Of a stretch of DNA of 34,212 nt, positions 6,151 to 34,212 are shown one piece after another. The DNA comes from Sphaeroforma arctica JP610 (lineage: Eukaryota): assembly GCF_001186125.1 (NCBI RefSeq), contig NW_014040138.1, positions 1 to 34,212 of the forward strand, in the 5' to 3' direction. The notes below the pieces were generated by a model. That model was given only the letters and a program-made list of their open reading frames with translations. It did no database searches and was not told the DNA's origin. The position numbers and the translations under genes were made by a program. The first letter of the stretch is position 1, and every line of letters starts with the position of its first letter.

Positions 6151-7321
6151 AACAATATTTGTGTAGATGCTTCACGTCGCTGTGTAAATTAACGCTCTGT
6201 ATGTTTAATTACATTTATACCAACCATCACAGCCAACACGATAAGCGCTTTTTCACGCATCTGAACAGCCTTGTCAACCACAACTGTAGCCTCGGCCACA
6301 AAAGCCTCCGACACTTATTCGCAGGCCTATGAATAGCAGAATTTCAACAAAGAATCAATACATGTTAATAGAGTGTAATGTGGATGACTATAAGTAAAGT
6401 ACAAATGCATCTAAAGTATGGCGCGTTCGAATGAATTTATCTATGATCTCACCCTCAGTTATATACTGATGGTGCTTGTACTAGTGTTCAACAACTTGGG
6501 TTGGCCACGGTAAAAACTTATAAGATCAGTATGAGAAACCTTATGCAGATCACTTTAGTACTCTGATAAATTTCTAGAAATATATATATATCACATTCTC
6601 TGTTACGTACTCTCAGTCTCGGACCTCGGCTCTCGGCTAGCCGATGGCCCGTGTCCTATAAATACTTTATAGAATAATCTGAGAAGAAGTCATAAATAAC
6701 TCTTACGTTCTCTCGGGCTGACCCACCTATACATATATTAATTGGAAAACAAGTCCCAAGTTACTTTCGGGCTGATGGCGTAAAACGTTCTCAACGTATT
6801 TAGAAATACTTACACTCCTGTAGTCTCTTAATACAAATCACTCTTACCAACAAACACTTATGCACACACAACCCAACGGCAACAAGGCAATTTCATACAT
6901 CAACCCGCACATTCTTGTTAGGCTATCATCTTCCATGCGAATTAACAGTAAGAACCTCAATTGCCCCAGCTTCGAATCGAACAGCAAAATCCATCACAAC
7001 AGCTTAGCTGTACGACAAGTGGCGAAAAAATGGAGGAAGGAAAGCAGATTCAACGACTAAGTTGTGATGGATTTTATGCAGATATACGTAAACATAAACA
7101 ATAATAAATTTTCTTCGTTTTTCAATGAATTGCAATTTTAATTACGATAAGAACTATCATCAAATCTAGACACCTGCTGTGTCAGCCGTACATACGTGAG
7201 TGTTGTAAAATTGCAACCGATTCGGATCAGGGACTGATTGTCACATGCGTCGTAGATTTTACTTTTATCCTTAGTAATTTTCTGCACTCATACTATTTTT
7301 GTGCGTGTGTAGAAAAACGGC

Positions 7322-7632
7322 CTTCGGTCAGTCTATAATATCAAGATCAAATGAGATATTAAGGTTTCTCCAATAAATCCAAAGTGTTCTAAATTCACTT
7401 TGATGGCTTATATAGCCTTAGTGGTTGGTATGACTCATATACTTGGCTCTGTTTAAAACAATAGTTGATGTAGGAAATGACATACTAAATTATATAACTT
7501 CTGAGCTATATACTACTTATCGTTTTGGTCCTCCTGCCAAATTCCAAAATCCAATATAGTGTTTTTCTTAGATATTTTTTATAAATTTTCTTCAGAAGGA
7601 CCTTTACTCATATTTGCTAATGTAATAACTTG
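7322..7632 (-). repeat. Interspersed repeat copy A (inverted homologue of 17398-17752)
   Basis: ccaaagtgttctaaattcactttgatggct and atatcaagatcaaatgagata here are exact reverse complements of blocks at ~17614-17643 and ~17703-17723. Confidence 0.85.
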
Positions 7633-9084
7633 GTTTGCATGCTTTCACCGATCTACGATGAGTCCATGTGAGCTATGCACCTTAAGTACTTCTACGGAAA
7701 AAATATCAATTAAGATTGTACAGGTACATTCTGTGTGATCATGAAGTTTTAAGACTCTTGCCAAGCAGCAACCGCGACCATTTTTGTACAATGTTTCACT
7801 GCTCATTCCTAATAAACTTAATTAGTCGTATTATTATTCTAATATAGTAATACTAATACTATTATCTCTGACGCTTATACGTGTGTAAACCCTATATCCT
7901 AAATTTCGACTCGGAGTGCTGTCAGTCTCATTGTTATACAATCATTTTGCACCTTGTCGTATCATACTTGTCGTCGTCGACAGGAATACCCTCCTCATTG
8001 TCAGGTAGTATTATATTCCTTAATGTCGTGGCCATTCCTTAATAGTAGAGCATTTCAGGTACATAAACAGTCATCGATACATAAAGTTGAAAGCCCCTTA
8101 TTTCTACAGAGCAAGTAATATGTTTTCCGCAGGTACGAATTGGTCTTCTCTATGTACTTCATTTCCTTAACGAATGTATTCATCTACCGACATGTTTAAA
8201 CCATAAATCCAAACCTCGACGAAAACTACTTTATTCGTGTCTTATTTTGCCCCTTGATATCAAACTGTAGAAATGTGATTAAAACGGTGGTTTAGTACTG
8301 CTACCTAAAGGCAAGTGTAGACGAATAATTAAAAGGACTGTATCAAATCTGAGTACTTAAATTAGCGCATGCGATATTGTTTGATTCACCAAATTGACTT
8401 GGGGGGTACTTAGTATTGGAAGGTCACATAGTTTATATCGAGTGGAGATGACTTTGTATACATATATCGGGCATACATATAGCGGTGGCAATAAACGAAC
8501 CGGCAGACCACTAGTGTGTATTTAGGTACTGATCTGGAAGTGACTGATCGTTATCGCAAAGCAATGGCGCTGCACGCTTCTCCAAAAACCCATCGTTGAT
8601 GGTAGCCGTTCAAACTACCCACTATATTGTGTACAGCTGCCTTTCTCACACATCTCGCAATGATATTTATATTAGCCTTTTTTAACTGCTATACTAGAGA
8701 TATTTTTGTATAGAATTTGTGATATAATCCTGCTCAAGGCTATTTGACAGTAATTCATAGTGAGCCATAGTATCTACTGTAGTGGATCAGGTAAATATGT
8801 ATCTGAACCAGCCAACCTACCAACCAACCTAGTATTAGGTTGGTTGGTTCAGTTATTTGCCTAATCCACAATACTACGAATGTACTATGGCTCTTGACTA
8901 TAAGGGTGCGCTTTGAGATGTGATTTTCTTGAATATCAAAAGCGCGGTTGACTGTTTGCTTGTTTTCGTTCATGAAGTATATGTCTACCACTACTGGCAA
9001 ACATCATCCTCAGTATTGTTCGACACCACTGAAATGTGAGCAAATATTATTGAGTGTGCAATTGCTCAAGGTATGTTGTACAAT

Positions 9085-9900
9085 AATAATGACATGCAGC
9101 AATTACTACTGCAGTATATTCGTGTGATGGTCGTTTTTGTAATATTGCGTTGTGTGCGAGATGCATCAATTATGACTAGTTTCAATTACTATTGCTCTAA
9201 ATTCGTGTGATGACTGTGTGTGCGTTGTCATAATTATGCCAAATATAAATTACTGTTGCTAAAATGTTGAGTGATGGCTGTGTGTATGTGATGCAACAAA
9301 TGACTAGTGGCAATTACTGTTGCTGTCTAGTTCTCTTGACTGTGTGTGTGATGCAAGTACTACGACCTGTGTTGCTATATATGAATGCGTTGGCGTGTAC
9401 CTGTCATGTAATGTTGTATATAGTGGAAATCATGTGTGTATGACCTGTAGGGCTACATGTCATAGAATTTACGTGTGCGTATGACACAAAGTGGTATATA
9501 TAATAGAATTCACGTGCATGTATGGCACACAGTGGTATATATAGTATGTGGCGTGTGCCAATGACCTGTAGGGCTATCTATACTGAAGCTCACGTGTATG
9601 CATTGCATATAGTGGTATATATAACAGAATTCAAGTGTGTATAGCATGAAGAACTATGTATAGTATATTGAAATTCAGTGTGTGTACGGCTATAATGGTA
9701 TATATAATGCATTTTACGTGTGAGTATGACATAAAGTGGTATATAAAATAGAATTTACGTTTGTATCACTGGTAGGGCTATATAAAATAAAATTCACGTG
9801 TGTATGACCTACAGAGGTTTATATATAGAACTTGGAATATTTTCATGATCTTTAGGTTTTATATATTAGAGTTGGCGTGTGTCGTTGTCTGGTAGTTGTA
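9085..9900. repeat. Degenerate minisatellite: ~60-bp units (caattactgttgct...gtgtgatg) followed by ~43-bp units (tagaattcacgtgtgtatgac...gtggtatatata)
   Basis: Recurrent motifs at regular spacing, with heavy divergence. Confidence 0.75.
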
Positions 9901-14237: not shown

Positions 14238-14418
14238 AATGGACAATATAAACTCGATTGCTCAAGAAGTGTCTTTGTTATATTTTGGCATTGAATATAA
14301 ATAAGTATTTGTCTTTATCTCATCATGCTGTGTTCAGATATATAAGTTTAGTAAAAAACTACTTTGAAGCTAAGGAAAAACTATGTTTGTGATTCTAAAA
14401 CCTGGGCAGCGCCCAAAA
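14238..14418 (-). repeat. 3' LTR of the Copia element
   Basis: Diverged direct repeat of 28826-28993 (shared ...aggaaaaactatgtt(t)gtgattctaaaacctgggcagcgcccaaaa). It follows RNase H and a purine tract (AGGAAGG on minus). Confidence 0.75.
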
Positions 14419-14449: not shown

Positions 14450-17160
14450 AGTCCGGAGAAGATTACGGAGGAGTTCGTACTTAGGACGAGACAAACTTTT
14501 GGTGAGTAAATCAGCTAAGTTGCCGTTGGTAGGAATGTAGGCAATGTCGATAATGTTTTTACCGACACAGTCCCTGATGTAGTGCGTGCGAATGTCTACG
14601 TGTTTGAGCCCTTTAGGGGTGCCAGTACCCTTGGCGACTTTGGTTGCACTTCGGTTATCGCAGTGAAGTTGAGTAGGTAGTTTCCGGTGGTATCCCATGG
14701 CATATAGAATGTTACGGATCCATGCAATATGTCGAACGCTTTCTGACGCGGTCACATATTCAGCTTCGGTAGAACCGATGGCGACAGTTTTCTGTTTGGC
14801 GCTCTTCCTGAGAGACCACAGGTCTCAGGCCAGATTTTACGAAACCATCTTTGATTTAAGGAAGTCAGCAGAGATAGCTCACTCCCGAGAGCTAAGTCAT
14901 CAGAGTTAGCTCACTCCCGAGAGCTAATCAAGTTGCTTAATTTACCCTCAAGAGTTGAGTTAATACTCAACCGACTTCCTAGAGCAGATTAAATTTCTCA
15001 ACCGATTCCCGAAAGTAGATTAAGTCTGTCAACCGCAATATTCTAAATATAGCTGCGGTTGTATGTAAGTCACAACCTATGCGAAAGACATCATGTGATC
15101 AGCGTGAGATTTAGTTGCAGGGAAGTTGAAATAGAATAGCGTCGAAGTGTTAAAGGTGTTCTGCATAAGGTTTCTCATGCTGACCATATGATATTTTACC
15201 CTGGCCAGCCCAAGCGGCTGAACACTAGCACAAACACCTTAGGTATAAAACCAAGGGTGAGGTCAGAAATAAATATATACATTTGCACTTTATTTAAAGT
15301 CTACTACATTGCACCCTAACACTTTCAGTAGATGGGAGCACCGTTAAAGCAGATGACGGTACCGGTCTGTGAGCGGCGATTAGCATAGTCACGGGCCCAA
15401 TCGGAGTCGGTAAAGCCCTGGAGGGCAGAGTCAATGGTCTGATTAGGAGCTCGACGACGGTATGTGATTTTAAAGTCTTTGGTGGCTTTAAGGTATTCTA
15501 GGATGCATTGTAGTGCGACAATGTGGCCCGTTGCTGGTTTAGTGGCAAAGGCAGCTAATTCATTGACCGTGGCAGCGATATCGATGCGTGTACGGTTGGC
15601 GGCGAAGCCAAAAGCTCCTAAAAGCTGTCAAGAATCTGTGCCAGTGTATGAGTCGGTTGTGGAGTCGGCAGGGTTGTGAGTGGTACCCGGTGTGTGTGTT
15701 TTGGTATTGTGCCATTGAGGTGAAATGTAGTGAGTACGTGTTCCACGTATGCCTGTTGATCTATCTCAATGCGATCAGGGTTTTGTCGGATTCGTAGACC
15801 TACAAGGTAACGCACACGGCCCATTTGAAAAAACAGCCAAGTTTCCTTGCACGAATTGCGGGGAACGGCGGGAGCAAGCTCATCAACATATAGGACTAGA
15901 AGAATGCGATGTTTGGAGTGGCACCAAATACTCTCGTCAGCGTCACTTTCTGTAAACCTAATTGATTGAAATCGTTTATTGATGTCGAGGTTACAAAGTC
16001 GGCCGGCTTGTTTCAAGCCTTAAAGGCCGCGCTTGAGTTTTAGTATTGTGTTAGGTGGACAAAACCCCAGTTCGACAGCACCAACGGGGGGGGGGGGGGG
16101 AGCGCATATAAAGCGGCGTATCAAGGTAAGAATTTAAGTATGCTGTGTCGACATCAAAGTGAAAGACGTCCAAGTCATAAAATGCAGCTTGTGCAAGAAA
16201 TGTCCGCAGCGTGGTTGAGGTGGCTGCTGGGGCATACGTGTCATGAAATGAGTCGCCCTCGACCTGTTGGCCGCTCCTAGCCACCATCCTAGCTTTATAA
16301 ATAGTAGGACTCTCGTGTTCATCGTGTTTTCGTGTAAGATCGTATTAGGAATGAATGATCTTGGTAACCGGTGGGACCTGTTCCGGTGTAACTATGTCCG
16401 CAAGATTGTTCTAAATGTGCGCCTTGTGTTCTGCTTGGATAGCCGAGAGCCATGACGATCATTCAGGTGTGCGTTGAGCTTGTTTAATACTTTTGGGTAA
16501 CGTATGATCAAGTGCGGCCGTGGCTTCGAGAAGGGTGTAGATAGTGGAAGCCGGGGACTGTAGTATGCGGATAGTAGGGTGGACAGATGAGTACGGAATA
16601 CCGGGTAGGACCAGGTTATCCGTCATAATTCGGTCGATGAGCAAAGTTGGGGGTGAGCCAATGCCGCACCAGACCACGGATGCACTCGGTATGTGCTGGC
16701 TGGCCGGGATCGGAAGTATCATAGGCGGAACCAACAAGCGCGATGACTCGGTTTGGACCGAAATTTGGAAGTAGTACTTCAACAGCATGATTAGCCGGGG
16801 TATGGGGAACATCTGCTAATTTGTCAGAGACGGGTGAGAGTACGGTGGTTGTTCTACATGCTGAAGAAATGATTCAATGTGTTTGTGGAGGTTCCAGATA
16901 CCGTGGAAGTCGTGGCGCGCCTGTTTTTTTGGTTGAGTAATTAATACACTGTGAAGTCCAAACTTAGTGCCGTCACAAATCATGTTCAACGTATACTTGT
17001 TGCCGTAGCGGTCAGCGGGCATAGGGCGCTGCAGGTCAGTGTCAATCTGCTTGACCGGCCCATAAATTGTGTCGGAGGTGTGATGAGGAACTGCCTTTCG
17101 TTTCAGCTTGCCCTCTATACAGACGCGCCAGTGTTTGGGAAATTCCGGGTTGTAAACTTC
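14450..17160 (-). pseudogene. Copia pol remnant: integrase N-part, reverse transcriptase, RNase H
   Basis: Integrase: CIEGKLKR...DTDLQRPM. RT: YKARMVAR..DTYAP..FDVDTAYLN, GLKQAGR, LYVDE. RNase H: GFTDSDWA, STEAEY, CDNRSA, KHVDIRTHYIR, NLADLLTKSL. Stops and frameshifts throughout. Confidence 0.95.
14809..15321 (+). mobile_element. Solo LTR (513 bp) of a different retroelement inserted in the Copia RNase H
   Basis: Starts TG, ends CA, flanked by a near-identical 5-bp TSD cttcc/ctttc. Contains TATAAAA (~15244) and AATAAA (~15268). Removing it restores GAPIYWKSAKQKTVA. Confidence 0.8.
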
Positions 17161-17397
17161 GATGGATATTTCTATGTTTTTAAACTATGTTGTATAAACT
17201 AAGATACAATATAAGTCAGTTAGGAATTAGCAGTGGTAGCTTGTGTACGAATGATCGGGACTGCCTCTTGTTAAGAGCCTTAAAATCTGCGATCACACAG
17301 GACGTACCTCTAGCTGTTCTTTATTGAATAATTTTCACTAGAAGTACTAAGTGTTCATGACCACATGTCTAATTTGTAGATAGACATAAGAACGTAA

Positions 17398-17752
17398 GTC
17401 AAGTTAATACATTAGCTAATATAAATAAAGTTCCTTCTGAAGAAAAGAAGAAAAAAAGAAAACAGACGTGTTGGATTTTGGAGATTGGCGGGAAGACCAA
17501 AACCTGTAAGTAGTAGATCAGAAATAAAAAAATCTAGTTTATAATATCCTACATCTACTATCGTCTTAAATATGTCCAGGTAGATGAGTCATACCTAATA
17601 CTCAGGCTATTGGAGCCATCAAAGTGAATTTAGAACACTTTGGAAATATTAGAAAAAGAACTTGTATTGAATTATTTTAAATACAAATAAAAACCAATGT
17701 GTTATCTCATTTGATCTTGATATTTTAGACTGACCGGACGCTGTATTTCTAC
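17398..17752 (+). repeat. Interspersed repeat copy B (inverted homologue of 7322-7632)
   Basis: See copy A. Both copies give related broken translations (LDFG.W.EDQN...AIKVNLEHFG). Confidence 0.85.
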
Positions 17753-18160
17753 ATAGCCCCCAGTAGCTTTCAGGACTACGGACGTACGTTAAGATACGAT
17801 CTAGTTTGTAAAGCGAAAAACCAAAGTACAACGGTTTCGGTCATGGCTTATCGAGTAAGTATGTGCCTATATGTACGAGTTTAAGACTCATGTTGTACTC
17901 TATGTCGTTTAGTATTTGGTCCAGCAACCATTTCCGATGTAGTCGCCTTACGTTTATTACTTGGTAAGGTAATAGCCAATGGTTTGTTCTTCATTAGTAA
18001 GTATGTTCGAAGAACTTTCTGCTCTGTTGGTAAGCAGATCAGAAAGTTTAGTCACATAGGAAGTAGGTGGCAAATAGGGAATTTCAGATCCATCAAGGGT
18101 TGTAGTCACCTGAAGAAACTCTTTCCGTTTATCTCGTGTGTTTTTATGTAAACGTTTATT

Positions 18161-19750
18161 TCATTTCTTATTAAAAATACGAAGGAAGTCGCGAGATTCA
18201 CAAAACGCATCGGAGGTTAGCCAAGTTACTGTCCCATCCATAAAACAGGTCTTGTAGTAAGTGTTACCGTCTTCGGATGTTTTGTCAATTATATCTCTGA
18301 CTTGTGACTCCATAACTGGGACATCATAATCAAATGAGCGAGCGAATGAAAGTTCGGAGGTAAGGATACGGTGAGCGCCTAGATTAGTTGTGCTAGTACC
18401 ATCTATGTTATTCACTTCGTAGGTATCACTCTTCTCATCATGGTAGGAAATAACAAAAGGTCCAATTGTCTTAGAAAAGAGTTCGGTAACGTTGGCATTG
18501 TAAGTTTCAGTCTATCAAGGCGATATTAACGCCTTAGAGTAATTTAACGCTTAGGTTAAGTCTAAGTATAGTTAAATTCGAAATAAGTAACGAAATGAGT
18601 CTTTTAGTAAAGTTAGGTATGCCTCGTGAAAACAGCAATACTCTGAGCGATTGTGAGGCTGAGACATTGCCTATATATAATCCTCTCAGTACTGTTTTCG
18701 CCGAAGGGATTTTATTTAGTGTTTCGTTGTCGCTCTATTAGAAACTATGGAGTGTTTTGTTGGGGCGAATCCGAGAGACTCATAAAATCTTATCTTTAGA
18801 AACATTAAATAATAACTTGCCACTTATCAAGAACTACCGACTTAGCCTTTATCAGACTGGCACATCTGGTTGGCTGAACGGAGGTTAAACTAGGTAGCGC
18901 TAATAGTCCCTAGAAACCTATATTCGGTTGAGCCATCTCGCTACCGAAGTATTCAGATATAAATAGATTTGGAAGTTAACATAGTTCTATTAATAGAAAT
19001 AGTCCAAATCATATCTTTGGCATTTTTATCTGGCCCTTTAATGGCCTTATCCAAATATCTGATATGTAAAATAGAAAAGGTATTTAATCAATAAAAACCG
19101 TTAAAAAAAACCATTTTAGGAAACTTAAGTTCCTCGTACTATTAAGAGTACGTTTATAGTTTACGTACTGCTTAAGAGTATGTTTATAACATAGAGTCTA
19201 ATGTGGAGGCCCGGCTACTAAAGCATTGCGATTTATAATGTCAACATAATCGCCAACTTTGAACTAAACAATGTTTTTAGTGTTATTCCATCTGTCATAC
19301 GCTTTAAGTATTACGTGATTTTTGTGCTCGAGTAAACAGGGGTAAACAACGTTTTGTATATGCTCGAACTTTTGTAGCCACGGAGTAACGTATTTCTCGG
19401 GCGCAGTTTTGTCAAACTTTGCTTGCAATTCACTATAGCGGCCAAAGAAATAATGAAACGGTTTGAGGATTCATGCAGTTATTCATTTCAGTCTGAACCC
19501 ATTTCAAACGATAAGACCACATATCCTCAACGTCATCTAGTGCGGTACGCAATAGTTTCTTCAGTTCTCTATGACGAGTCTCATTTGCACCCTGCGTTTG
19601 AGGTTTAAAAGGAACATCACGCCTATGTGTCATGCCTGATACGAGTATAAGTGCCTCCATTACATCGGTACAAAACTCACTACCGTTATCAGAACACAGT
19701 AACGACTCTGTCACTGTTTGCAAATGTTTGTTCGGTATTGCATAAGGAGT
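18161..19750 (-). pseudogene. Gypsy/Ginger-type rve integrase remnant with a C-terminal chromodomain-like segment
   Basis: SDNGSEF...PFKPQTQGANE (integrase D..E core, 19433-19723); FKVGDYV (~19245-19265); VRDIIDKTSEDGNTYYKTCFMDGTVTWL (chromodomain-like, 18161-18310). Confidence 0.75.
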
Positions 19751-19849
19751 GTGTTATATCATTCAAATAATATTATCCCTAAAAAAAAAATCCCTAAAAA
19801 AATAATAATATTATGGCAATAATGCCACGGACGGAGTAGTTGGAGTAAA

Positions 19850-20960
19850 AGTATCAGGTGGGACTGGCAAAGGAATAGAGGTGTTGTCGGGTGGAGGAGG
19901 CGATTCTTCTTGACGTCCGAGTCAGTGAGGTCAGCGTCACTTGGCGGTGGAGAATTGCGTGTGGCAAGCGTTCAAAGCCAGTGATAAGTACTGCTATACC
20001 CTCCCTTTGTTCGCGTAATGAGAGTGATGAGTCTGTGTGATGAATGAGGCATATACGCATGTTGATGAAAAATTCAAAGCGGTGCCCACTGTCCTGAAGT
20101 CTATTTTGGGAAACAACTATTTGCTGTGAAAGGAAAGGGCTGAGATAGGTTAGCCCTAAGCCAGAAAGAACTCCCCGGGTGGTAACGTGGGTGAGCATTG
20201 AATCATTAGCGAGAAGAAGAGGGAAGGTATGTCCAGTTTCAACATCAAGTAGTAAATGTTTAGCTGTAGTGTGGAGATAATTTACCCTTACAGAGGAATT
20301 TAGGACTGGACCAGAGGACCAGGCCTACGGGAATATTTTAGGTCCAAACCAGAGGACCGGACCTAGGCGATTATTCGAGGTGAGGACCAGAGGACCGGAC
20401 CGATTAATGGATTAGAGAAATTAATGAGATAGAAGTGATGACTCAACTGAAACCATAGAGACGGGTATTTTCACACAACGCAATGGTAGAGAAAGTTTCG
20501 TTCTACTTAGGATCGTGATTAATAAATATAGCAGTAACACCATTCCTAATAGCACTTCTGACTGAGTTCACTTATTTCAGACTTAACATTCTTTATTAAG
20601 TTTTACCTGGTTTTGACCATACCCCGCCGTCAATAAGAAGGGGATACATGGTAAAGTCTATTCGACAACGAAGTCATGTATTATATAAAAGGGAACGGCG
20701 AACGAACGAGACGGAGGCCAAGATGGCGGCATTGGGATCTAAATACTGCCATGTCTCGATTTACTCACAATTGTGAAGTAGAGAAATGTTGGTATAGTCA
20801 TTGGTGACAAGAAATTGTCGGACTTGATCTTGAGGGCCTGGTCAAGGCCAGAAAGTAAATGTCTTGGATGAATGCCGATGACAGGGAATTATCTTGGCTG
20901 GTAGCAATACGTTTTAACGTAGTACAGCGATTTTTCCATACGCAGCGCGTGTTTTCATCG
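19850..20960 (-). pseudogene. Copia gag C-part / protease / pre-integrase remnant
   Basis: WKNRCTTLKRIATSQDNSLSSAFIQDIYFLAL continues in frame from the gag piece at 28351. LLIDGG (~20640) and ILHRQV (~19950) are weak protease and pre-integrase motifs. Confidence 0.5.
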
Positions 20961-21110
20961 CAAAATACTCTTTATTTAGTGGCATATTTACCATTTTTTC
21001 ATGCCAAATGTAAAAATGCCTTCTTTTCATACCAAACTGATTTTTGCCTTTATTTCATGCCAAATGTAAAATCGCCTTTTTTTCATGTCAGATGTATAAT
21101 ACCTTTTTTT
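20961..21110 (+). repeat. Left terminal inverted repeat: four 28-bp units (core TTTCATGCCAAATG)
   Basis: Cores start at 20997, 21025, 21053 and 21081. Confidence 0.85.
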
Positions 21111-22668
21111 AGTTTGTGTACACATTTTGCAATTAAGGCTGTGGTTTTGCAATTTTGTGTCCGTTTGAACCGTCCTTGCTCGGGCACCAGGAATCTGCCT
21201 CACACCACATATAGCTCCTTCAGTACCAACAGGTAAGAGTCTACCGTTCGAGTCACGACGCAAGAGACAACGTGAGCCCTATCCGGTACCAACAGGCATG
21301 ACTCGAACGGTATAACCGTTCGAGTCACTGGACCAGAGACAATATGGCCTCTATTTAGTACCAACAGGTAAGAGTCTACCGTTCGAGTCACGACGCAAGA
21401 GACAACGTGAGCCCTATCCGGTACCAACAGGCATGACTCGAACGGTTATACCGTTCGAGTCACTGGACCAGAGACAATATGGCCTCTATTAGTAAGTACT
21501 TGTGTGTGCCCTAGTGCGTGCCTGTGTGGTAGTATTGGTGTGGGGGTAGTACACACACCCAAGGGTCACCGGATACGTGTCCGCTTCAAACGGACACAGA
21601 CGGCGGTTTTTGCAATTAAGGCTATGGTTTTGCAATTTTGTGTCCGCTTGAGCCGGACACAAATTGTGTCGTGCCCCTAGTAGTATTTGTGCGTGCCCCT
21701 AGTAGTATTTGTGCGCGCCCTAGTAGTATTTGTGCGTGCCCCTAGTAGTATTTGTGCGCGCCCTAGTAGTATTTGTGCGTGCCCCTAGTAGTATTTGTGC
21801 GCGCCCTAGGGGGTCGTCGCACCGTATACACTATACGGTCGCACCGTATACACTATACGGTCGCACCGTATACCCGGCGGTGCTGGGGACCTTCGACGAG
21901 AGTGTGCGCTTGAACCGGACACAAGGCGATGGTTTTTGCAATTAAGGCTGTGGTTTTGCAATTTTGTGTCCGCTTGAGCCGGACACAAGGCGATGGTTTT
22001 TGCAATTTTGTCGTCAGAAGCACGATAACCTGGTGATTTGACTGTGGCTTGCTCGGGTACCATCAATACCGACAGGTAAGTGTCTACCGTTCAAGTCACT
22101 GGACCAGAGACAATATGGCCTCTATTAGTAAGTACTTGTGCGTGCCCTAGTGCGTGCCTGTGCGGTAGTATTGGTGTGAGGGTAGTACACACACCCAAGG
22201 GTCACCGGTGATAGAACGCGCACAAAGGCGAGCTTGCTATCGTACGGTAGGCTCAATGGTACTTGCCAGTGCCTATGGTAGAACGCGAGCAAAGGCGAGC
22301 TTGCTATCGCGAACTCAATGGTACGTGCCAGTGCCTATGGTAGAACGCGAGCAAAGGCGAGCTTGCTGTCGCGAAATCTACGGTAGGCTCAATGGTACGT
22401 GCCAGTGCCTATGGTAGAACGCGAGCAAAGGCGAGCTTGCTGTCGCGAAATCTACGGTAGGCTCAATGGTACGTGCCAGTGCCTATGGTAGAACGCGAGC
22501 AAAGGCGAGCTTGCTGTCGCGAAATCTACGGTAGGCTCAATGGTACGTGCCAGTGCCTATCGTAGAACGCGAGCAAAGGCGAGCTTGCTATCGCGAACTC
22601 AATGGTACGTGCCAGTGCCTATGGTAGAACGCGAGCAAAGGCGAGCTTGCTGTCGCGAAATCTACGGT
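21110..22668. repeat. Composite array of hairpin-containing direct repeats
   Basis: 135-bp unit x2 (21222, 21357); alternating 22/21-bp units (21671-21809); 22-bp unit x2.5 (21816-21873); gtgtccg..cggacac hairpin units; 74/62-bp units x~6.5 (22210-22668). Block 21450-21572 recurs at 22085-22207. Confidence 0.95.
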
Positions 22669-23039
22669 AACAGTGGTCGGTTGGGGATTCACGGCGTCCA
22701 CAATCACCGGGGCCTTGCTGGGGGTGAGATCAATGGTTGGAGGTACCACGGGTGCTTCCGACGCCAGCTGGCCCGTGACGGGGTTGGGGTTGCAAGAAGA
22801 CTGCGACGGTTGCGGGTAATCTCAACCTGGAGGGATCACAGTACGACGGCATCATTCTGGATCTCTAGTCGAAAAGATGAAATTATTTCTTTTAAAAAAA
22901 CCCCGCGTAAATATTTCCATATACATATCCAGATACCCAGACACACACATAAAATATATATCCACATACACAGACACATACACATATAAAATATACACGC
23001 ATATAGTACATCCACCCACAAGTATATACGTATAAAATA

Positions 23040-23112
23040 TTCGTATACCCCGTTGCTGGTTTTTCCGATGCGCTTGGACAGACCAAAGTCGATCACATAG
23101 TACTTGGTTAGG
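23040..23112 (-). pseudogene. Captured protein-kinase fragment (subdomain VII)
   Basis: LTKYYVIDFGLSKRIGK, followed on minus by GTATAC and a TG/TA-rich intron-like tract (22915-23045). Confidence 0.55.
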
Positions 23113-23351
23113 TCCACAAAGTTGAACAGTAGGTTGTCCCGATATCCAATTGGTCGAGGCTCGAAACCGGCATTGGTTGAAAGTACACGTGATTTCGCTT
23201 ACTCTGTGTGAACAAATTAATAGGTGTCAAGAATAAACCAATTCTCTGGTGTTCACGAATTATAGCTGATTCATGAATGTATGAGAATGATGTGACGCAT
23301 ACCCGAAATTGGTATTTAAGGCATTCCAAACTTTCAAATTGAATTCACAAT

Positions 23352-24302
23352 ATGATGCCTAATGATCAACATGACGCCATTGGCCGGTTCGCAGTTATTG
23401 ACGCCGTGGTTGACTTTATTCTGGACTACGACGACTCGCCGATCAGTGTCGAGGCCGTACTGTGCATGGAACGTATCGTTCGCCACGAACCCGAGGCCGA
23501 GTGTCTCGTGCGGTTGATTCATCACAAGTTGCGCACGCTGCAGCGCAAATACGTGGGTGGTCCGACACGCACCATCAACGGCCCATCGGGCATCGACGGA
23601 CACTCGCTGTCGTGCGTACAGGGATCGGCCGCCGATCCACTGGCGGTGCTAGCATTACCCGACTGTACCGTGGAAATTGCCGACTGCAGTATTTGCCTCG
23701 AACAAGACGGCCACGGAAACGTTGTATCCAGTCTGCCCTGTGGACACGACTTCCACCGCACGTGTATTCGCCGCTGGTTGCAGTCCAGCACCCAGTGTCC
23801 CGAGTGCCGTGCCGAGTTGCCAGACACTGTAGGTGCAGCCGACAACGTGCCGGTGTTGAGTCTGGAGAATACCTGGACCTCCAATCAGGTTTTGGAAAAC
23901 CGAGTCTCACGATGGAACGTTGTGTCCTTGAAGCAAAAGAAAACCACCGGCTCGACCGGACTTGCACCGACCGTTTGGTTTATGGACTGCGACGGCGACA
24001 TGGTCAAGCGCGTCAAAAATCGACGCGGCAAGAAGAAGCTCGTGCGTGTGCCTTTCGACGAGTGGGTAAACGACCACGAACTGGCGGCAATAACCGTGCG
24101 TGTGTTTGACGACACCGACCGTTTCCCCTGCGTCTCGAAGGGACAGTTTGACAAGTCGTATGATGACGTCGCCACTCCGATGCGTGTGTTGACACTTTTT
24201 GTCCGCGACGGTATTGTGTACAAGCAGACCGCGAACGTGACTGTTTCTGCACACGCTTTCAGTGACACCTTGTTTTTCTCGATTTTCTCGAAAATATTGT
24301 GA
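23352..24302 (+). CDS. Intronless RING-H2 (C3H2C3) putative E3 ubiquitin ligase with an unknown C-terminal domain
   Basis: CSIC-x15-CGHDFHRTC-x10-CPEC in a 316-aa open frame, visibly GC-richer than the flanks. The last ~12 codons run into the adjacent repeat block. Confidence 0.9.
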   Translation: MMPNDQHDAIGRFAVIDAVVDFILDYDDSPISVEAVLCMERIVRHEPEAECLVRLIHHKLRTLQRKYVGGPTRTINGPSGIDGHSLSCVQGSAADPLAVLALPDCTVEIADCSICLEQDGHGNVVSSLPCGHDFHRTCIRRWLQSSTQCPECRAELPDTVGAADNVPVLSLENTWTSNQVLENRVSRWNVVSLKQKKTTGSTGLAPTVWFMDCDGDMVKRVKNRRGKKKLVRVPFDEWVNDHELAAITVRVFDDTDRFPCVSKGQFDKSYDDVATPMRVLTLFVRDGIVYKQTANVTVSAHAFSDTLFFSIFSKIL

Positions 24303-24782
24303 ATGGTGTTGCGAAAAAAAACTTGCACAGAATCGTCCGCTGGTGTTCCGTGCACGAAAATTATTGTCATCGATGTTGCGTACCGTGCACGAAACTTTTT
24401 TTCCCCGATTTTCTTGAAAAAAATGTGAACGGTGTTGCGACGCAACTTGCACAGAATCGTGTGCTGATGTACCGTGCACGAAACTTTTTTCCCGATTTTC
24501 TTGCACGAAACTTTTTTGTGCGGCGCGTGGCGTTGAGTTCATCACTCGAGGCTGAATGATGAACTGTGGAAAAACAAAACCTGGTTGGTACTCCCATGTT
24601 CGCGCTCGCAAATAAAACCATTCACCGATTTAGTTTTTATGCGTATAAGAGCGGCGACGCAACTTGTACGGAATCGTGTACTGATGTACCGCGCACGAAA
24701 CTTTTTTTTCCGAATTTCTTGAAAAAACGGTGTTGCGACACAACTTGTACGGAATCGTGTGTTGATGTACCGCGCACGAAAC
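24270..24782. repeat. Degenerate direct repeats (gtgttgcgacgcaacttgcacagaatcgtgtgctgatgtaccgtgcacgaaactttttt) between two convergent genes
   Basis: Copies near 24305, 24372 (partial), 24431, 24655 and 24729. Confidence 0.9.
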
Positions 24783-25794
24783 TGACCTTCGTCCGGTCCC
24801 GCCGCATCTGCGCCTTTAGCTCTGCGCTCAGCTTGACGGTTGCAAACCCCTTGTTGCCAGACACCACCTTGTGCGACCCGGCGATGCACGAAAAGTACTG
24901 AGCCGTCGAGTCCAGGTTCCACCAGCCCCCAAACACGAGATCGTCGGCCCCGGCCAGCTTGGCCTCGTCCCGGTGCCACGCCTCCGCCGAGGCCGATTCG
25001 CCCTTCTGTCGCACCATCATGCGGTCGACCACCTGCTCAAAGTACATTGGCCCACCTTGTGTTCCAGCCAGGGGCGCCAGGAGGGGTCTGATGATCGCGT
25101 GCGCCCACACCCTAAGTAGGCGCACAGTGGGGTTGTGGAACGACGCGGGGTTCCCGAGCGCCCCAAAGCCACCCAGTACATACTTGCTGGCGTCGGCGTT
25201 GAACTCGGGGAAGTTGGCAATCTCCGCGTCAAAGTATGCCCTCGCCTGCGCCACGTCCAGGTCCGTCGGCACCACGGCGTACCCGTGCTTTTCGAGGTGC
25301 TCAAGCACTGTCAAATGATCACCACCACTCCTTCCAGGCCGTGGCTGCGGTGGTAGCGGACGGGGCTCGGGGACCCTGGCAACAACGGCAACCTCCTCGG
25401 GTGGTCTTGGGCCGGCTTTGGAGTCAATGTACGCTTGCACCATCGACTCGGCAACCACAGAGTCGTCAATGTTGACCCAGATCACACACCCCTGCTTGTG
25501 CTGGTACGGGAGCGCTCGCTGTAGCCGCACGGGCGACTCCAGGACCCACGCATACGGCGTCTTGTACCCACTGTGCAGGGCCTGCGACCCGTGGCGGTCC
25601 GAGTGGCTTGCAAACACCTCGTTGTCCAGCTTGATACAGTCTACCAACTTGGCAAACCCGACCACCTTTTGTCACCCAGACTCTACTAGGCCCACAAAGC
25701 CACGGTGTGTCGCTGGCGAACCGCGGATCCCCCAGGTCTTGTTGCCGCCAAGTATAAGGTCCAGCGGCGTCTTCTTGATTATGATTCCCTTCAT
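24637..25794 (-). pseudogene. ASCH domain fused to a PhyH-like 2OG-Fe(II) dioxygenase; in-frame stop and 3' truncation
   Basis: ATG 25794: MKGIIIKKTPLDLILGGNKTWGIRG...ESG*QKVVGFAKLVDC...YAWVLESPVRL..PYQHKQGCVIWVNI (ASCH; TGA at 25674-25672). A Pro-rich linker follows, then GYAVV...WHRD...WWNLD...GSHK (PhyH-like). The frame enters the repeat at ~24782. Confidence 0.8.
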
Positions 25795-25872
25795 TCTTCC
25801 GTGTGTCTTGAATATCTTGAATCTCTAAACTTGTGACTTGTAAAGTTACGATAACACTACTACTTATACTCG

Positions 25873-25901
25873 ATTTACAAATCCAATTTGGATTTGCAAA
25901 T
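25873..25901. promoter_or_regulatory. 29-bp near-perfect palindrome in a divergent intergenic region
   Basis: atttacaaatccaa-t-ttggatttgcaaat (13 of 14 arm positions complementary). Confidence 0.45.
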
Positions 25902-26036
25902 GGACGACCAATCGATCAATCGTGTCCTATGAGCCTTTAGGGTGTAGGGTTTGCTTGAAGGGCCCGCAGCCTGCTCAAGTTCAAAGCACATCGCACCATA
26001 GGGCCACCCCACTAGGCTTCGTCGCCCCCCAAGACC

Positions 26037-26570
26037 GTGATGGTCGGCAGCTGCGCGATCAAGGCCGAGGGGATTCCAGTATCCTCCGGCTCGCTGGTCT
26101 CCCGTCTACTGGATGGTGATGTAGCTGCTCGCGCGGACATGCTTGGCGTGATCCGAGCCGCAAAGGCCGAGGGGATTCCAATATCCTCCTGCTCGCTGGT
26201 CTCCCGGCTACTGGATGGTAGTAGTGAGACGAGGGTGAAAATTTTACGTAGTATCAAGCTGATGATGGATCACAAAATAAGTTGTTCCTACAACACGGTC
26301 GTCAAGTATGTTGTTGGACCCAACTATCGCTCGAGAGTTGAATCGATAGTCGGTCTACGAAACGCCGGTGTTCCTATAACGAACTCTACCGTCTACCGCG
26401 CACTCGTCTTGGGATATTATAATATCGTGGTTGATATTTGGACCAGAATGAAAACTGAAAGTGTACCACATAAGAAGCGCAAAGCGACAGGAAATATGCG
26501 TGTGGACGAGGTGATTAAAAGAGCGCGCGTACAATCGGAAGAAGGCCGCACATTTGACTCCTCTAGATAA
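26037..26570 (+). CDS. Hypothetical protein with tandem HTH-like repeats and a basic C-terminal NLS-like patch
   Basis: KAEGIP(V/I)SS.SLVSRLLDG twice, 34 aa apart; related ISCSYNTVVKYV and LRNAGVPITNSTVYRAL; HKKRK. Confidence 0.55.
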   Translation: MMVGSCAIKAEGIPVSSGSLVSRLLDGDVAARADMLGVIRAAKAEGIPISSCSLVSRLLDGSSETRVKILRSIKLMMDHKISCSYNTVVKYVVGPNYRSRVESIVGLRNAGVPITNSTVYRALVLGYYNIVVDIWTRMKTESVPHKKRKATGNMRVDEVIKRARVQSEEGRTFDSSR

Positions 26571-27210
26571 AATTTCCAATTTCTAAATAAATTGTCCTTT
26601 ACCAGTGCTCCTCCTGCATTCATAATCAGAAACACCGCCTCTACATGTACATTGTAAACCATCGCCTCTTGGACAGTTTAGACTCGGCGGTCGGAACCCG
26701 TAGTTGCGGACGGGGGTGTATAGGTTGACCAGCGCGACCGTGTCTGGTAGCGACTTTGGATGGTCCTTTCCATTGTCTCCGAGACCCAGCACCCCGACAC
26801 TGGGGAAGCCACTACTTCCATGTGCATAGCTGTGTACATTGTTGCCATGGGGTGGAAAATGTCACGAAGAACGTGTCCACAAGTTCTTCATAGGTCAGAT
26901 CCGACACACGGGAAATGTAATTCTTTTTACATATATATATATGTACACACACATACACATACACACACACACCGATTTTGACGTGCTGCGACTCATGACG
27001 ATTGGTGCGGATCTGAAGATGTGTGTGCAGGTGACGAATACTGAATGAAATTAAAATACTTAATTAAAAAGATAAAAGAATAACTTTTTGAATACGGACT
27101 TAAGGGGATCAACTACTACAAAAAAAGGTCGATAAAAAATTTAAGAAATATATATATTTTTTTATACCATTCGTTTCGTTCCACAAAACTTAAAAAAAAA
27201 CATTGCTACA

Positions 27211-27762
27211 ATGAGCGGCATCCTAAGAGACAACGTGTTTTACCTCAAAGACCGCCACGGCCAATACTGTGACCTGGGGGTCCTATTTGAGACCCTGGAG
27301 GTGCAGGACACACACATTGTAATCACGCTGCCAAACAAGACAAACTTTAAGCTTATGCGCAAGCCAGACACACCCGAAAGCCATTTGCCCATTAATACCA
27401 AGAAGGGTCGGGTGAACCGCATGTACGTGGAGCGTCAGGTGTTGTGTGTGCTGTACGACTGTGGAACCAAGGGCTACGTGCCATCGATTTCTCTGTGCGG
27501 CAACACATCCACAAAGCCCCCCTGTACACCCAAGCACACACTGATGCCGAAACTTTTGAAGCGTCCCGAGTACATGCAGCGCCGGCCAAAAAAGTACGGC
27601 AACTGCACACAGGCACAACCGGTCACACCGACCTGTACCACAAAACCCGCGGTTGTGGTACTACGTGGGGGTTGGAGGGATCCGATTGTTCTTGAGCCTG
27701 TTGCTGCCTGCGTAGCCGCCGGCGTTCGTCGGACTGTGCCTTCGATCGACTGTAGGGTCTAG
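27211..27762 (+). CDS. Intronless hypothetical protein (183 aa)
   Basis: ATG immediately after a very AT-rich promoter-like tract (27050-27210); open frame of complex composition; no family recognised. Confidence 0.55.
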   Translation: MSGILRDNVFYLKDRHGQYCDLGVLFETLEVQDTHIVITLPNKTNFKLMRKPDTPESHLPINTKKGRVNRMYVERQVLCVLYDCGTKGYVPSISLCGNTSTKPPCTPKHTLMPKLLKRPEYMQRRPKKYGNCTQAQPVTPTCTTKPAVVVLRGGWRDPIVLEPVAACVAAGVRRTVPSIDCRV

Positions 27763-27869
27763 TGCGGTCGAAACCGTATCCTCTGTGGTTTGAGGGATCC
27801 GATTGTTGTTGAGTCTGCTGTCGTTTGGATGTGGATGTACGGGGGGAGTCGTAGTGCTGCTCCTGCTTG

Positions 27870-28212
27870 GACCCTGTGTTGACCGGCGGTAATATCTCAA
27901 ATGACTTTCGTGGAGTATTGGACTTGAATGGTTGTGGGTAATGTCGTGCGTATCAAACTGGGCCGACACACCCTTGGACCAATCCAGAGTGGCCAGCGGG
28001 TTGGTCGCGGCACGCAGCCGTCTGGGACCGCCCGCACCCACCGCCCTGTACTGCAACCGTGACCCCCCCGCTGCTCGGGCGGACCTGGACCGTTCCAGAC
28101 ACGTAGCCGCGGCACACTTGGGCTTGGCTTTGGGCTGTTCCACTTCACATCAAGCGCCTGACCCTCCAGGTCATCATACACCAGCTCCGGGGCCACGGCC
28201 TGCACATCTTCC
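27870..28212 (-). pseudogene. Possible remnant of a transposase N-terminal WRKY/FAR1-like domain
   Basis: TCLERSR...VGAGGPRRLRA...DTHDITHNH reading inward from the right end; GGP is one substitution from GCP. Confidence 0.3.
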
Positions 28213-28342
28213 AAAATATGAAAAAAAGGTATTTTACATTTGGCATGAAATAAAGGCATTTTTCGATTTGGCATGAAATGAAGGCAAAAAGGCGTTTGGA
28301 CACAAACAATGGGGTTTTTTATACCAAAATGAAGGTACTTCC
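28210..28342 (-). repeat. Right terminal inverted repeat: four ~28-bp units (CATTTGGCATGAAA on plus)
   Basis: Cores end at 28223, 28250, 28278 and 28306. The outermost core begins at position 37 from the end, as on the left. Confidence 0.85.
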
Positions 28343-28780
28343 TTTTCATCGTCTTGGATATTAAGCTAAATTGATAGGCATCACAATAGTAGCGGACATC
28401 GTAGGACCTGAAGTAGTGTCCATGGGTCGGACAGAAATTATTTCATCGGGATCAAGTGAATTTCGCAGTTCATCAGATAAAGAGTCAAAGAGGTGTATCT
28501 AACGAGCACAACGGGCATACGTACTATCTTCAGTGGTCGTTGCACGGAATTGGGCTGTACGGAAGTGAACATGAGCGGGTAGGTACACAATCGGGGTTTG
28601 TCCAGTTGGGGTCTGTGGTTGACCCTCTCAGATAAATTCGAAAACTGGTAACTTATTCTGTTTAGCGGTGGAGGTGGCAACACGGAGGTCGGCTAGCCAG
28701 TCATCGTGGTTATCACCGCTGAGGGACAGAAGTGTCCAGCGACTACGGAGCACTGTGGTCGGGGCAGCGTCGTCGTTCAT
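28343..28780 (-). pseudogene. Copia gag N-terminal remnant
   Basis: MNDDAAPTTVLRSRWTLLSLSGDNHDDWLADLR (LxGxNxxxW gag motif)...IHLFDSLSDELRNSL; internal stops. Confidence 0.65.
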
Positions 28781-28813
28781 GATAAATGTAATTCAAAAAA
28801 TATGTCGAATAAA

Positions 28814-28825
28814 GGCCCATATCCT
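28814..28825 (-). promoter_or_regulatory. Primer-binding site of the Copia element
   Basis: AGGATATGGGCC immediately 3' of the 5' LTR, one mismatch from the GGTTATGGGCC copia-type PBS. Confidence 0.65.
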
Positions 28826-28993
28826 AATGGACAATACAAACTCAATTACTAAAGAAGTGTCTTTATTATCTTTTGGTATTGAATATTGTCTATATCTCAT
28901 CCTGCTGTGTTCCGATATATTAGTTTAGTAAAAACTATGTTGAAGTGAAGGAAAAACTATGTTGTGATTCTAAAACCTGGGCAGCGCCCAAAA
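28826..28993 (-). repeat. 5' LTR of the Copia element
   Basis: Diverged direct repeat of 14238-14418, directly upstream of the PBS and the gag ATG. Confidence 0.75.
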
Positions 28994-29707
28994 TTTCCCC
29001 CCAGTTTCTCATGTCTCAGCAGACTGTCAGACCTTTTTTTTTTAAATAAAGAAATAAAAAACAAAAAAACAAAAAAAAACATCATCAAGATGGTCGTGAA
29101 GAAAAAAAAAAGCTGTTTATGTACAATTACGTATTTACTCGAAATCTTTATCCTAATTTCATAGCCTCTCCAGACTCCAGAGCCTCTGCCTCTCGTATGT
29201 ATAAATTTGAAAAAATCCCCCCCCAAAAAAATCACAACTTGCCACAAAATATAGTGAAAAGGTATTGATCGTCAAGGACAATTCAAAACGTACTGCTCAG
29301 TAGCCCTTCTCACCGGTGGAGGGTATATTTAACAGCTTACGTTTTCCTCTCTGGGCGAATAGATATTCCCGGTTCATTTCAGCTCCAGTGATATATTTAT
29401 AGTACAGAGCACACAAAAGAAAAGGGACCTACTTCCCAAGGCCCAAGTTGGGTAGATGCAAGAGACCTAAAGAACAGTATTTATTTGATCCCTCGTCTCT
29501 TGTGCGAGTGTGTAATATTAAAATCCGAGGTGCGGCCTCCGTGCTATTTTATTACGGTCGCTAACGTAATATGTGCTAGTGAGTACACTACACTCCGTTA
29601 CACATCTCAAATTATAGTGTATTGACTCACAAGGCAGTAGAGCATAAGCTTGTTGCACTCTCGACAAAGAAAAACAACACTGCAATCTCCTGCTTCCAAT
29701 CTGTACA

Positions 29708-34178
<4,471 letters not shown>

Positions 34179-34212
34179 GTACGTATTTGTGTGCGTGTCT
34201 TCTGTGTGGTGG

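What the first reader, a model, noticed from the sequence alone, without database searches (positions are those of the whole stretch)
20952..28351. 7.4-kb cargo-carrying DNA transposon with a 9-bp TSD and unusual intronless cargo
Seen: exact TTTTCATCG on both sides. Both ends carry four inverted ~28-bp units starting at position 37 from each end. Deleting the element gives an open gag frame (LNIQDDENTRCVWKNRCTTLK). Inside are hairpin arrays, RING-H2, ASCH-dioxygenase, HTH-repeat and orphan ORFs, and host-like fragments, but no intact transposase. Known: 9-bp TSDs typify Mutator (Merlin makes 8-9 bp), and Pack-MULEs capture genes in plants. Inference: a non-autonomous pack element in a microbial eukaryote moving near-complete, intronless, possibly virus-derived genes. 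I do not recognise this cargo combination.
Basis: partly seen in the sequence, partly recalled or inferred. Interest (0 to 1): 0.88.

Follow-up and report, generated by a model that had tools for sequence, protein, structure and literature searches.

The report
Transposon carrying a giant-virus-type gene
A 7.4-kb insertion in a single-celled relative of animals has transposon-style ends, a 9-base target duplication and no recognisable transposase; it is likely a Mutator/foldback-type cargo transposon, and it holds a broken copy of a gene whose family is found mostly in giant viruses, which suggests that such transposons may spread virus-derived genes inside this genome.

Summary
The element is real. 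TTTTCATCG occurs only twice in the window and bounds 7,382 bp whose ends carry inverted 28-bp unit arrays in register with it (80/120 identical; best of 10,000 shuffles 55). Contigs from four studies carry the junctions. Depth at the ends is roughly 12-33 times single copy, while most of the interior is single copy. No transposase remnant was found. The anatomy (9-bp TSD, unlike tips, subterminal tandem units) matches Mutator/foldback families (Tm1, Muta1); the superfamily is inferred, and Merlin or P/Galileo are not excluded. A tool names the host Sphaeroforma arctica. One cargo gene, an ASCH plus PhyH-like dioxygenase fusion, belongs to a family found mainly in giant viruses (86 IMG/VR stretches, 4 in GTDB). 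Here it has a stop and is truncated; a 97%-identical intact sister lies elsewhere in the genome. The other ORFs are orphans. The 'open gag frame' is weak (4 codons upstream, no Pfam match) and 'HTH' is unconfirmed. Whether the cargo moved with the ends or piled in afterwards is open. The scan's earlier notes hold nothing similar.

The parts
20952..20960 (+). Left target-site duplication TTTTCATCG
   Evidence: only two copies in the window
20961..21110 (+). Left end: tip unlike the right tip, then four 28-bp units
   Evidence: depth about 12x single copy
21115..22669 (.). Block of direct repeats, palindromes and tandem arrays (135, 22/43, 22 and 74/136 nt periods)
   Evidence: other contigs join the left end (21050/21081) to about 21954-21961 (table 5)
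22839..23198 (-). Kinase-like fragment running into an intron-like GT/AT microsatellite; likely a host fragment
   Evidence: weak NCBIfam Bud32 kinase hit E 0.083; no Pfam or PDB hit; sequence
23352..24302 (+). Intronless 316-aa ORF with a RING-H2 finger; the rest is orphan
   Evidence: residues 160-316 find only the protein itself; single-copy depth
24269..24783 (.). Array of about 58-nt repeats at which the dioxygenase gene is cut off; multi-copy elsewhere
   Evidence: contig 24543-24820 with 0 differences spans the cut in run X6
24787..25794 (-). Broken ASCH plus PhyH-like 2OG-Fe(II) dioxygenase fusion: stop at codon 41, C-terminal 142 aa missing
   Evidence: intact sister P0133; fold
25870..25904 (.). 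Hairpin upstream of the fusion gene, in a multi-copy patch
   Evidence: z -6.2; depth
26040..26570 (+). 176-aa orphan ORF with a duplicated 57-nt stretch (102-nt spacing); HTH not confirmed
27211..27762 (+). 183-aa orphan ORF; no transposase match
28218..28342 (-). Right end: three 28-bp unit cores plus one degenerate unit, tip beginning GG
   Evidence: depth about 24-33x single copy
28343..28351 (+). Right target-site duplication TTTTCATCG
19436..19753 (-). Retroviral-type integrase remnant, likely of the decayed element that was the insertion target
   Evidence: phmmer against PDB, E 2e-6
28364..28780 (-). Possible decayed gag 5' part of the target element (unconfirmed)
   Evidence: by-eye resemblance only; no Pfam hit

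Best explanation
Window 20961-28342 is an insertion bounded by a 9-bp duplication and inverted arrays of 28-bp units, with no recognisable transposase; it is likely a non-autonomous Mutator/foldback-type (Pack-MULE-like) cut-and-paste element moved by a transposase encoded elsewhere in the genome. Inferred mechanism: the transposase binds the repeated units at both ends, cuts at the two unlike tips and inserts with a 9-bp stagger, here into an already decayed retroelement 1.4 kb upstream of an Argonaute gene. The interior is a patchwork: repeat modules shared with other loci, a host-like fragment, three orphan ORFs and a broken copy of an ASCH-dioxygenase gene. That gene's dioxygenase family occurs mainly in giant viruses, and an intact sister exists elsewhere in the genome. 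The gene likely entered the lineage from a giant virus and was likely copied between elements before this copy decayed. Shown: TSD, ends, junction contigs, raised depth at the ends, gene identity, breakage and family distribution. Inferred: superfamily, mobilisation in trans, viral donor, and capture before insertion.
For: TSD unique in the window and in register with the inverted arrays. Contigs stop about 30 letters inside each end in 3 or 4 of 4 runs, as expected where a sequence becomes multi-copy. End depth is about 12x (left), 32x (right array) and 24x (last 41 nt) against 1x for the RING and orphan ORFs in runs X11 and X6. Other contigs join the same left end to an inner motif about 0.9 kb further in, which points to family members with other interiors. 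Tm1 has 9-bp TSDs, asymmetric 7-bp tips and tandem-repeat TIRs (PMC3169594, passages). Ten of 12 long-TIR Aedes MULE families have subterminal tandem repeats, all 14 have 8-9 bp TSDs, and their non-autonomous copies carry mixed interiors (PMC5225508, passages). Cargo: intact 477-aa sister, 325 of 336 identical. Best viral structure matches are Marseillevirus LCMAC101 (E 5.8e-24) and Tetraselmis virus 1 (5.5e-14), against 7e-7 for the best PDB dioxygenase. 86 of 96 candidate stretches in IMG/VR are relatives, 25 of the 80 listed being named giant-virus bins, against 4 of 63 candidates in 185,579 GTDB genomes. A major capsid gene lies beside it in L029 and a Pox_A22 resolvase gene in L023.
Against: No transposase or autonomous partner was seen, because no genome was held. 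No second copy with its own TSD was read. The units are 28 bp with no 14-bp sub-period, longer than the 9-15 bp of Aedes MULEs and the 13-15 bp of Tm1. A GG tip, 8-9 bp TSD, imperfect TIRs and internal tandem repeats also describe some Merlin families (PMC8101967, passages). Most of the interior is single copy, so this 7.4-kb form is not shown to have moved twice. The nearest tree neighbours of P0133 are unlabelled environmental proteins (support 0.82). The family also holds two proteins labelled from other eukaryotes and a GTDB contig with a neighbouring histidine kinase (L019). The ASCH half has many relatives on phage-sized IMG/VR contigs and none in 5 of 5 dioxygenase-bearing virus records searched. 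Cargo GC3 (0.54-0.76) is not distinct from that of host exons (0.56-0.70). The tool warns that contig depth is not a copy number.
Confidence: 0.62

Rival explanations
1. Same kind of non-autonomous cargo element, but moved by a Merlin or a P/Galileo-type transposase.
For: The right tip begins GG, and Merlin has GG tips, 8-9 bp TSDs, sometimes very imperfect TIRs and internal tandem repeats. The left tip begins CA, as P elements do (recalled). Foldback-like ends occur with more than one transposase class.
Against: The left tip lacks GG. Unlike tips plus tandem-unit arrays of more than 100 bp plus a 9-bp TSD match Tm1 and Muta1 more closely. P-type TSDs are 7-8 bp (recalled).
Confidence: 0.17
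2. A much shorter element landed here, and the 'cargo' accumulated afterwards by nested insertions and recombination among repeats, so the 7.4 kb never moved as a unit.
For: The interior is a mosaic of single-copy and multi-copy modules. The dioxygenase is cut at a multi-copy repeat array. Other contigs show a shorter left interior. The region is a pile of decayed retroelements.
Against: No short direct repeat of 6 or more bases flanks the 58-nt array, the one internal boundary pair tested. The element is GC-richer (0.51) than its flanks (0.41). The outer TSD is still perfect, which suggests a fairly young insertion (inference).
Confidence: 0.15
3. A remnant of an endogenous giant virus, Polinton-like virus or Plavaka giant repeat.
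For: Intronless ORFs and a gene of a giant-virus family. Ichthyosporeans hold such inserts (PMC11244446, section 7).
Against: No capsid, polymerase, ATPase, integrase, tyrosine recombinase or Plavaka match inside. The end units were not found in IMG/VR. An intron-like host fragment lies inside. That paper reports no reliable ViralRecall hit in S. arctica.
Confidence: 0.04
4. Assembly artefact.
For: No contig spans the whole element. The window's own allele of the dioxygenase gene was not the one laid in any of 4 runs.
Against: Junction contigs with 0 differences in runs of four studies. A perfect TSD in register. The dioxygenase cut is spanned in X6. Contigs drop minor variants.
Confidence: 0.02

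Closest known systems
Mutator/Foldback family Tm1 of root-knot nematodes (PMC3169594)
   Same: 9-bp TSD, asymmetric short tips, TIRs built of tandem units that differ in number between ends, non-autonomous members
   Different: Tm1 units are about 14 bp and the two members described in the passages read have no obvious coding potential; here units are 28 bp and the interior holds long ORFs; no transposase seen here
Pack-MULEs and the Aedes Muta1 non-autonomous derivatives (PMC5225508, PMC6431247)
   Same: 8-10 bp TSD, ends of more than 100 bp with subterminal repeats, mixed captured interior, no own transposase
   Different: Pack-MULEs mostly carry 1-2 kb of host gene fragments and none of the 2004 set exceeded 7 kb; this is 7.4 kb, in a unicellular holozoan, with gene-length intronless ORFs and a giant-virus-family gene
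Merlin families with imperfect TIRs (Sy.k_F1, PMC8101967)
   Same: 8-9 bp TSD, divergent tips, internal tandem repeats, GG at one tip
   Different: The left tip is not GG; the passages read describe no gene cargo
Amoebidium Plavaka giant repeats and giant endogenous viral elements (PMC11244446)
   Same: Ichthyosporean host, intron-poor genes of foreign look clustered in a mobile context
   Different: No Plavaka transposase, tyrosine recombinase or viral core gene here; far smaller; bounded by a TSD and foldback-like ends
Uncharacterised giant-virus PhyH-like dioxygenases (Marseillevirus LCMAC101 A0A481YSB5, Tetraselmis virus 1 A0A2P0VN02)
   Same: Predicted fold and, in the sequence family, the invariant HxD...H...R motif
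   Different: No relative seen carries the ASCH domain: all non-self hits listed cover at most 55% of the query

Membership tests
Mutator/MULE (Pack-MULE, foldback type) | 8-10 bp target-site duplication | tested here: met
   9 bp, exact and in register
Mutator/MULE (Pack-MULE, foldback type) | Long (>100 bp) inverted ends, often with subterminal tandem units | tested here: met
   80 of 120 identical; 28-bp units; tips unlike, as in Tm1
Mutator/MULE (Pack-MULE, foldback type) | Ends shared by many copies | tested here: inconclusive
   Depth about 12-33x and contig breaks at both ends point to many copies, but no second copy was read
Mutator/MULE (Pack-MULE, foldback type) | MULE-domain DDE transposase in an autonomous family member | not testable with these tools
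   No genome held; none inside this copy
Mutator/MULE (Pack-MULE, foldback type) | Captured gene sequence with a parent elsewhere in the genome | tested here: met
   Intact 97% sister P0133 on another contig; its surroundings are unknown
Merlin | 5'-GG at both tips | tested here: not met
   Right tip GG, left tip CA in this copy; other copies not read
Merlin | 8-9 bp TSD | tested here: met
Merlin | DDE_Tnp_IS1595 transposase in the family | not testable with these tools
   None inside; no genome to search
Endogenous giant virus / Polinton-like / Plavaka repeat | Viral core genes, polymerase B, or Plavaka / tyrosine recombinase gene | tested here: not met
PhyH-like 2OG-Fe(II) dioxygenase (intact sister P0133) | Dioxygenase fold with HxD...H iron ligands and the 2OG-binding Arg | tested here: met
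   Foldseek matches; H, D and H in 92 of 92 rows, R in 90 of 92; Pfam score 21.2, under the cut-off of 22. The window copy lacks the second His and the Arg
LTR-retrotransposon gag (insertion target) | gag domain collinear across the empty site | tested here: inconclusive
   58-aa open stretch with 4 codons upstream; no Pfam hit; no second gag copy in the window

The most novel reading that the evidence does not exclude
A family of foldback-type DNA transposons in Sphaeroforma acts as a gene shuttle: it picked up a giant-virus dioxygenase, fused it to an ASCH nucleic-acid-binding domain, and carries whole intronless genes between loci. This would give an animal relative without recognised giant-virus insertions a transposon-borne route for viral genes, and possibly a new nucleic-acid-directed dioxygenase.
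Probability: 0.3. Interest if true: 0.75.

Novelty: new variant of a known kind. Interest (0 to 1): 0.52.

Why it matters
Gene-carrying cut-and-paste transposons are mostly described from plants and some animals, where they usually hold fragments of host genes. If a family with these ends holds the intact ASCH-dioxygenase gene, it would show a transposon keeping and spreading a giant-virus-family gene in a unicellular relative of animals where a virus-detection screen found no reliable insertion. The intact fusion is a testable enzyme from an uncharacterised viral family. As it stands the evidence is one decaying copy, so the interest is moderate.

Tried and rejected
No whole genome was held, so the ends could not be searched genome-wide. 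The flanks and tip sequences of other copies of the left end were not read and remain unknown. End-unit patterns gave 0 matches in metagenome contigs and viral contigs. No RNA holder was listed. No empty-site joint appears among the 15 joints shown (4 hidden); this is uninformative for a cultured line. By eye the 27211 ORF resembled a MULE N-terminal zinc-finger domain (recalled motif). It was not supported by Pfam, NCBIfam, PHROGs, PDB, the Atlas (L28e lead at 0.89, under the bar; none) or a single-sequence fold (pLDDT 34, not searched further). Its one metagenome hit, L101, is a chance match to a membrane protein. The RING ORF and the 26040 ORF gave no relative in their own viral scans; generic RING fingers occur in 5 of 100 fetched loci. 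A 14-bp sub-period in the end units was tested and is absent. Rfam gave 0 matches in 19000-30000. A PDB sequence search with the dioxygenase profile gave 0. A second gag copy in the window was sought and not found. Codon composition does not separate cargo from host. The scan's earlier findings gave nothing relevant (the one row, a lambda-like promoter, shares 4 of 48 words). Ten paper searches listed no description of this element or of a Mutator-type element carrying giant-virus genes in ichthyosporeans. The library lacks most subscription papers and Repbase, and no supplements were read; repeat libraries in them may hold this family.
Full report
Observation. TTTTCATCG lies at 20952-20960 and 28343-28351 and nowhere else on either strand of the window. 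It encloses 7,382 bp of GC 0.51, against 0.41 in the flanks. Both ends hold 28-bp tandem units in inverted orientation. Measured from the TSD, the two ends align without a shift: 80 of 120 bases are identical, against a mean of 35 and a maximum of 55 in 10,000 shuffles. Some 9-mer pair between two 95-nt zones arises in 4% of shuffles, but at one given position the chance is about 7e-6, so the register is what makes the TSD convincing. The left end has four unit cores; the right has three plus a degenerate one. The tips agree at 5 of 8 and 13 of 30 positions. The TSD shares seven letters with the unit core but is out of phase with the array.

Independent sequencing. Twenty of 24 listed runs hold part of the stretch, from 7 studies. 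Four runs of four studies were laid, all as contigs; one may be the window's source. A contig 20568-20992 with no differences crosses the left junction in 2 of 4 runs, with 32 letters inside the element. Contigs cross the right junction in 4 of 4 runs with 27-30 letters inside the element (36-39 counted to the end of the TSD), just under the tool's 31-letter rule at the inner boundary. Breaks about 30 letters inside an end are what a 31-mer assembly gives where sequence becomes multi-copy (inference). From the bin means of X11 and X6, depth is about 12x single copy over the left end, 32x over the right array and 24x over the last 41 bases; the tool warns that such depth is not a copy number. 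The RING ORF and 26013-27974 are at 1x and the dioxygenase gene at 2.5x. Other contigs join the left end to 21954-21961. No contig spans the element, and the flanks of other copies were not read.

Host and target. Tool output names two proteins of this cargo gene as Sphaeroforma arctica, one of them the gene model over this locus. An Argonaute gene lies to the right (ArgoN and PAZ matches; likely start at 29708). A copia-type reverse transcriptase remnant lies at 15621-16019 and a retroviral-type integrase remnant at 19436-19753 (E 2e-6). The target is likely a decayed retroelement, but collinearity is unproven.

Cargo. The minus-strand gene 25794-24787 has a stop at codon 41 and ends at residue 336, where a multi-copy 58-nt repeat array begins. 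A contig in X6 spans that cut with no differences. An intact 477-aa sister on another contig is identical at 325 of 336 residues, and the allele seen in the runs agrees with the sister at the replacing positions listed (21 listed differences, 58 further rows hidden). The sister folds (mean pLDDT 79) into an ASCH-like domain and a PhyH-like dioxygenase. HxD...H is invariant in 92 of 92 aligned relatives and the Arg is kept in 90 (92 rows chosen from 189 by BLAST rank and locus label). The window copy lacks the second His and the Arg. The best viral structure matches are from Marseillevirus LCMAC101 and Tetraselmis virus 1. The family rang in 86 of 96 candidate IMG/VR stretches, 25 of the 80 listed being giant-virus bins by name, and in 4 of 63 candidates in GTDB: three short MAG contigs and one weak 46-aa match. 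The two scans used different patterns. Among 7 loci checked, neighbours include a major capsid gene (L029), a Pox_A22 resolvase (L023) and an Erv1 oxidase (L024), but also a hybrid histidine kinase (L019). In the tree the sister sits beside two unlabelled proteins (0.82), inside a clade of 38 (0.86) with four IMG/VR and two GTDB loci; the two eukaryote-labelled relatives fall outside it. A giant-virus donor is therefore likely, not proven. The ASCH half has 214 relatives among protein representatives and 126 in IMG/VR, and none in 5 of 5 dioxygenase-bearing virus records searched. No non-self hit listed covers both domains, so the fusion was seen only in this species. The RING ORF matches Pfam only in its finger, and its C-terminal half finds only itself. 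The 26040 and 27211 ORFs found no credible relative. A kinase-like scrap (E 0.083) runs into an intron-like microsatellite.

Transposase. Scans through stops of 20961-23362 and 25800-28345 in six frames and of 23300-24801 in the three minus frames found no transposase family, nor did scans of the ORFs.

Mechanism. The best reading is a non-autonomous Mutator/foldback-type element moved in trans. Tm1 has 9-bp TSDs, asymmetric tips and tandem-repeat TIRs (PMC3169594, passages). Aedes MULEs have 8-9 bp TSDs, subterminal repeats and derivatives with mixed interiors (PMC5225508, passages). Merlin shares the TSD size, can have very imperfect TIRs and starts with GG (PMC8101967, passages); only one tip here does. 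That the units bind transposase, and that the cargo was inside before insertion, are inferences. Since most of the interior is single copy and the one traceable gene is broken, later accumulation inside a shorter element stays possible.

Comparison and novelty. Pack-MULEs of the 2004 set did not exceed 7 kb and were mostly 1-2 kb (PMC6431247, passages). Such elements usually carry fragments rather than whole genes (PMC11162782, passages). Amoebidium has giant-virus insertions and Plavaka repeats, while ViralRecall gave no reliable hit in S. arctica, which has a few polinton-type viruses (PMC11244446, passages and section 7). PMC12344493 and PMC12221973 (passages) added nothing on this element. 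Ten searches listed no description of it; supplements were not read. It works like a Pack-MULE, but membership awaits the transposase. Verdict: real, a new variant of a known kind, interest 0.52.

Noticed in passing
window 20280-20620: A very high-copy repeat in the left flank (depth up to about 130 times single copy, with many variant contigs), lying between the putative gag and the integrase remnant; not identified.
   Followed up: no
window 29708-34212: Argonaute gene with an RGG-rich N-terminus and long TA/CA-microsatellite introns, starting 1.4 kb from the element's right end.
   Followed up: partly
window 14238-14418 and 28826-28993: A 181-bp segment present twice at 85% identity. One copy abuts the end of a copia-like RNase H frame, the other precedes the putative gag; possibly an LTR edge or leader.
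   Followed up: partly
window 17700-20900 (minus): In the decayed target element the integrase remnant appears to lie between the putative gag and reverse-transcriptase/RNase H-like text (by eye only), a copia-like order; only the integrase was confirmed.
   Followed up: partly
window 7308-7848 and 17184-17753: Inverted duplicate of about 490 bp at 73% identity.
   Followed up: no
window 9373-9833: Degenerate tandem repeat array.
   Followed up: no
L020 and L021: Contigs in bacterial MAGs carry the dioxygenase beside RING, heliorhodopsin and RNase T2 genes (L020) or a papain-like gene (L021); they may be misbinned giant-virus contigs.
   Followed up: partly
window 25660-25690: The public gene model P0023 skips the in-frame stop with a short predicted intron and reads on into the repeat array, so it is probably an annotation artefact.
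   Followed up: yes
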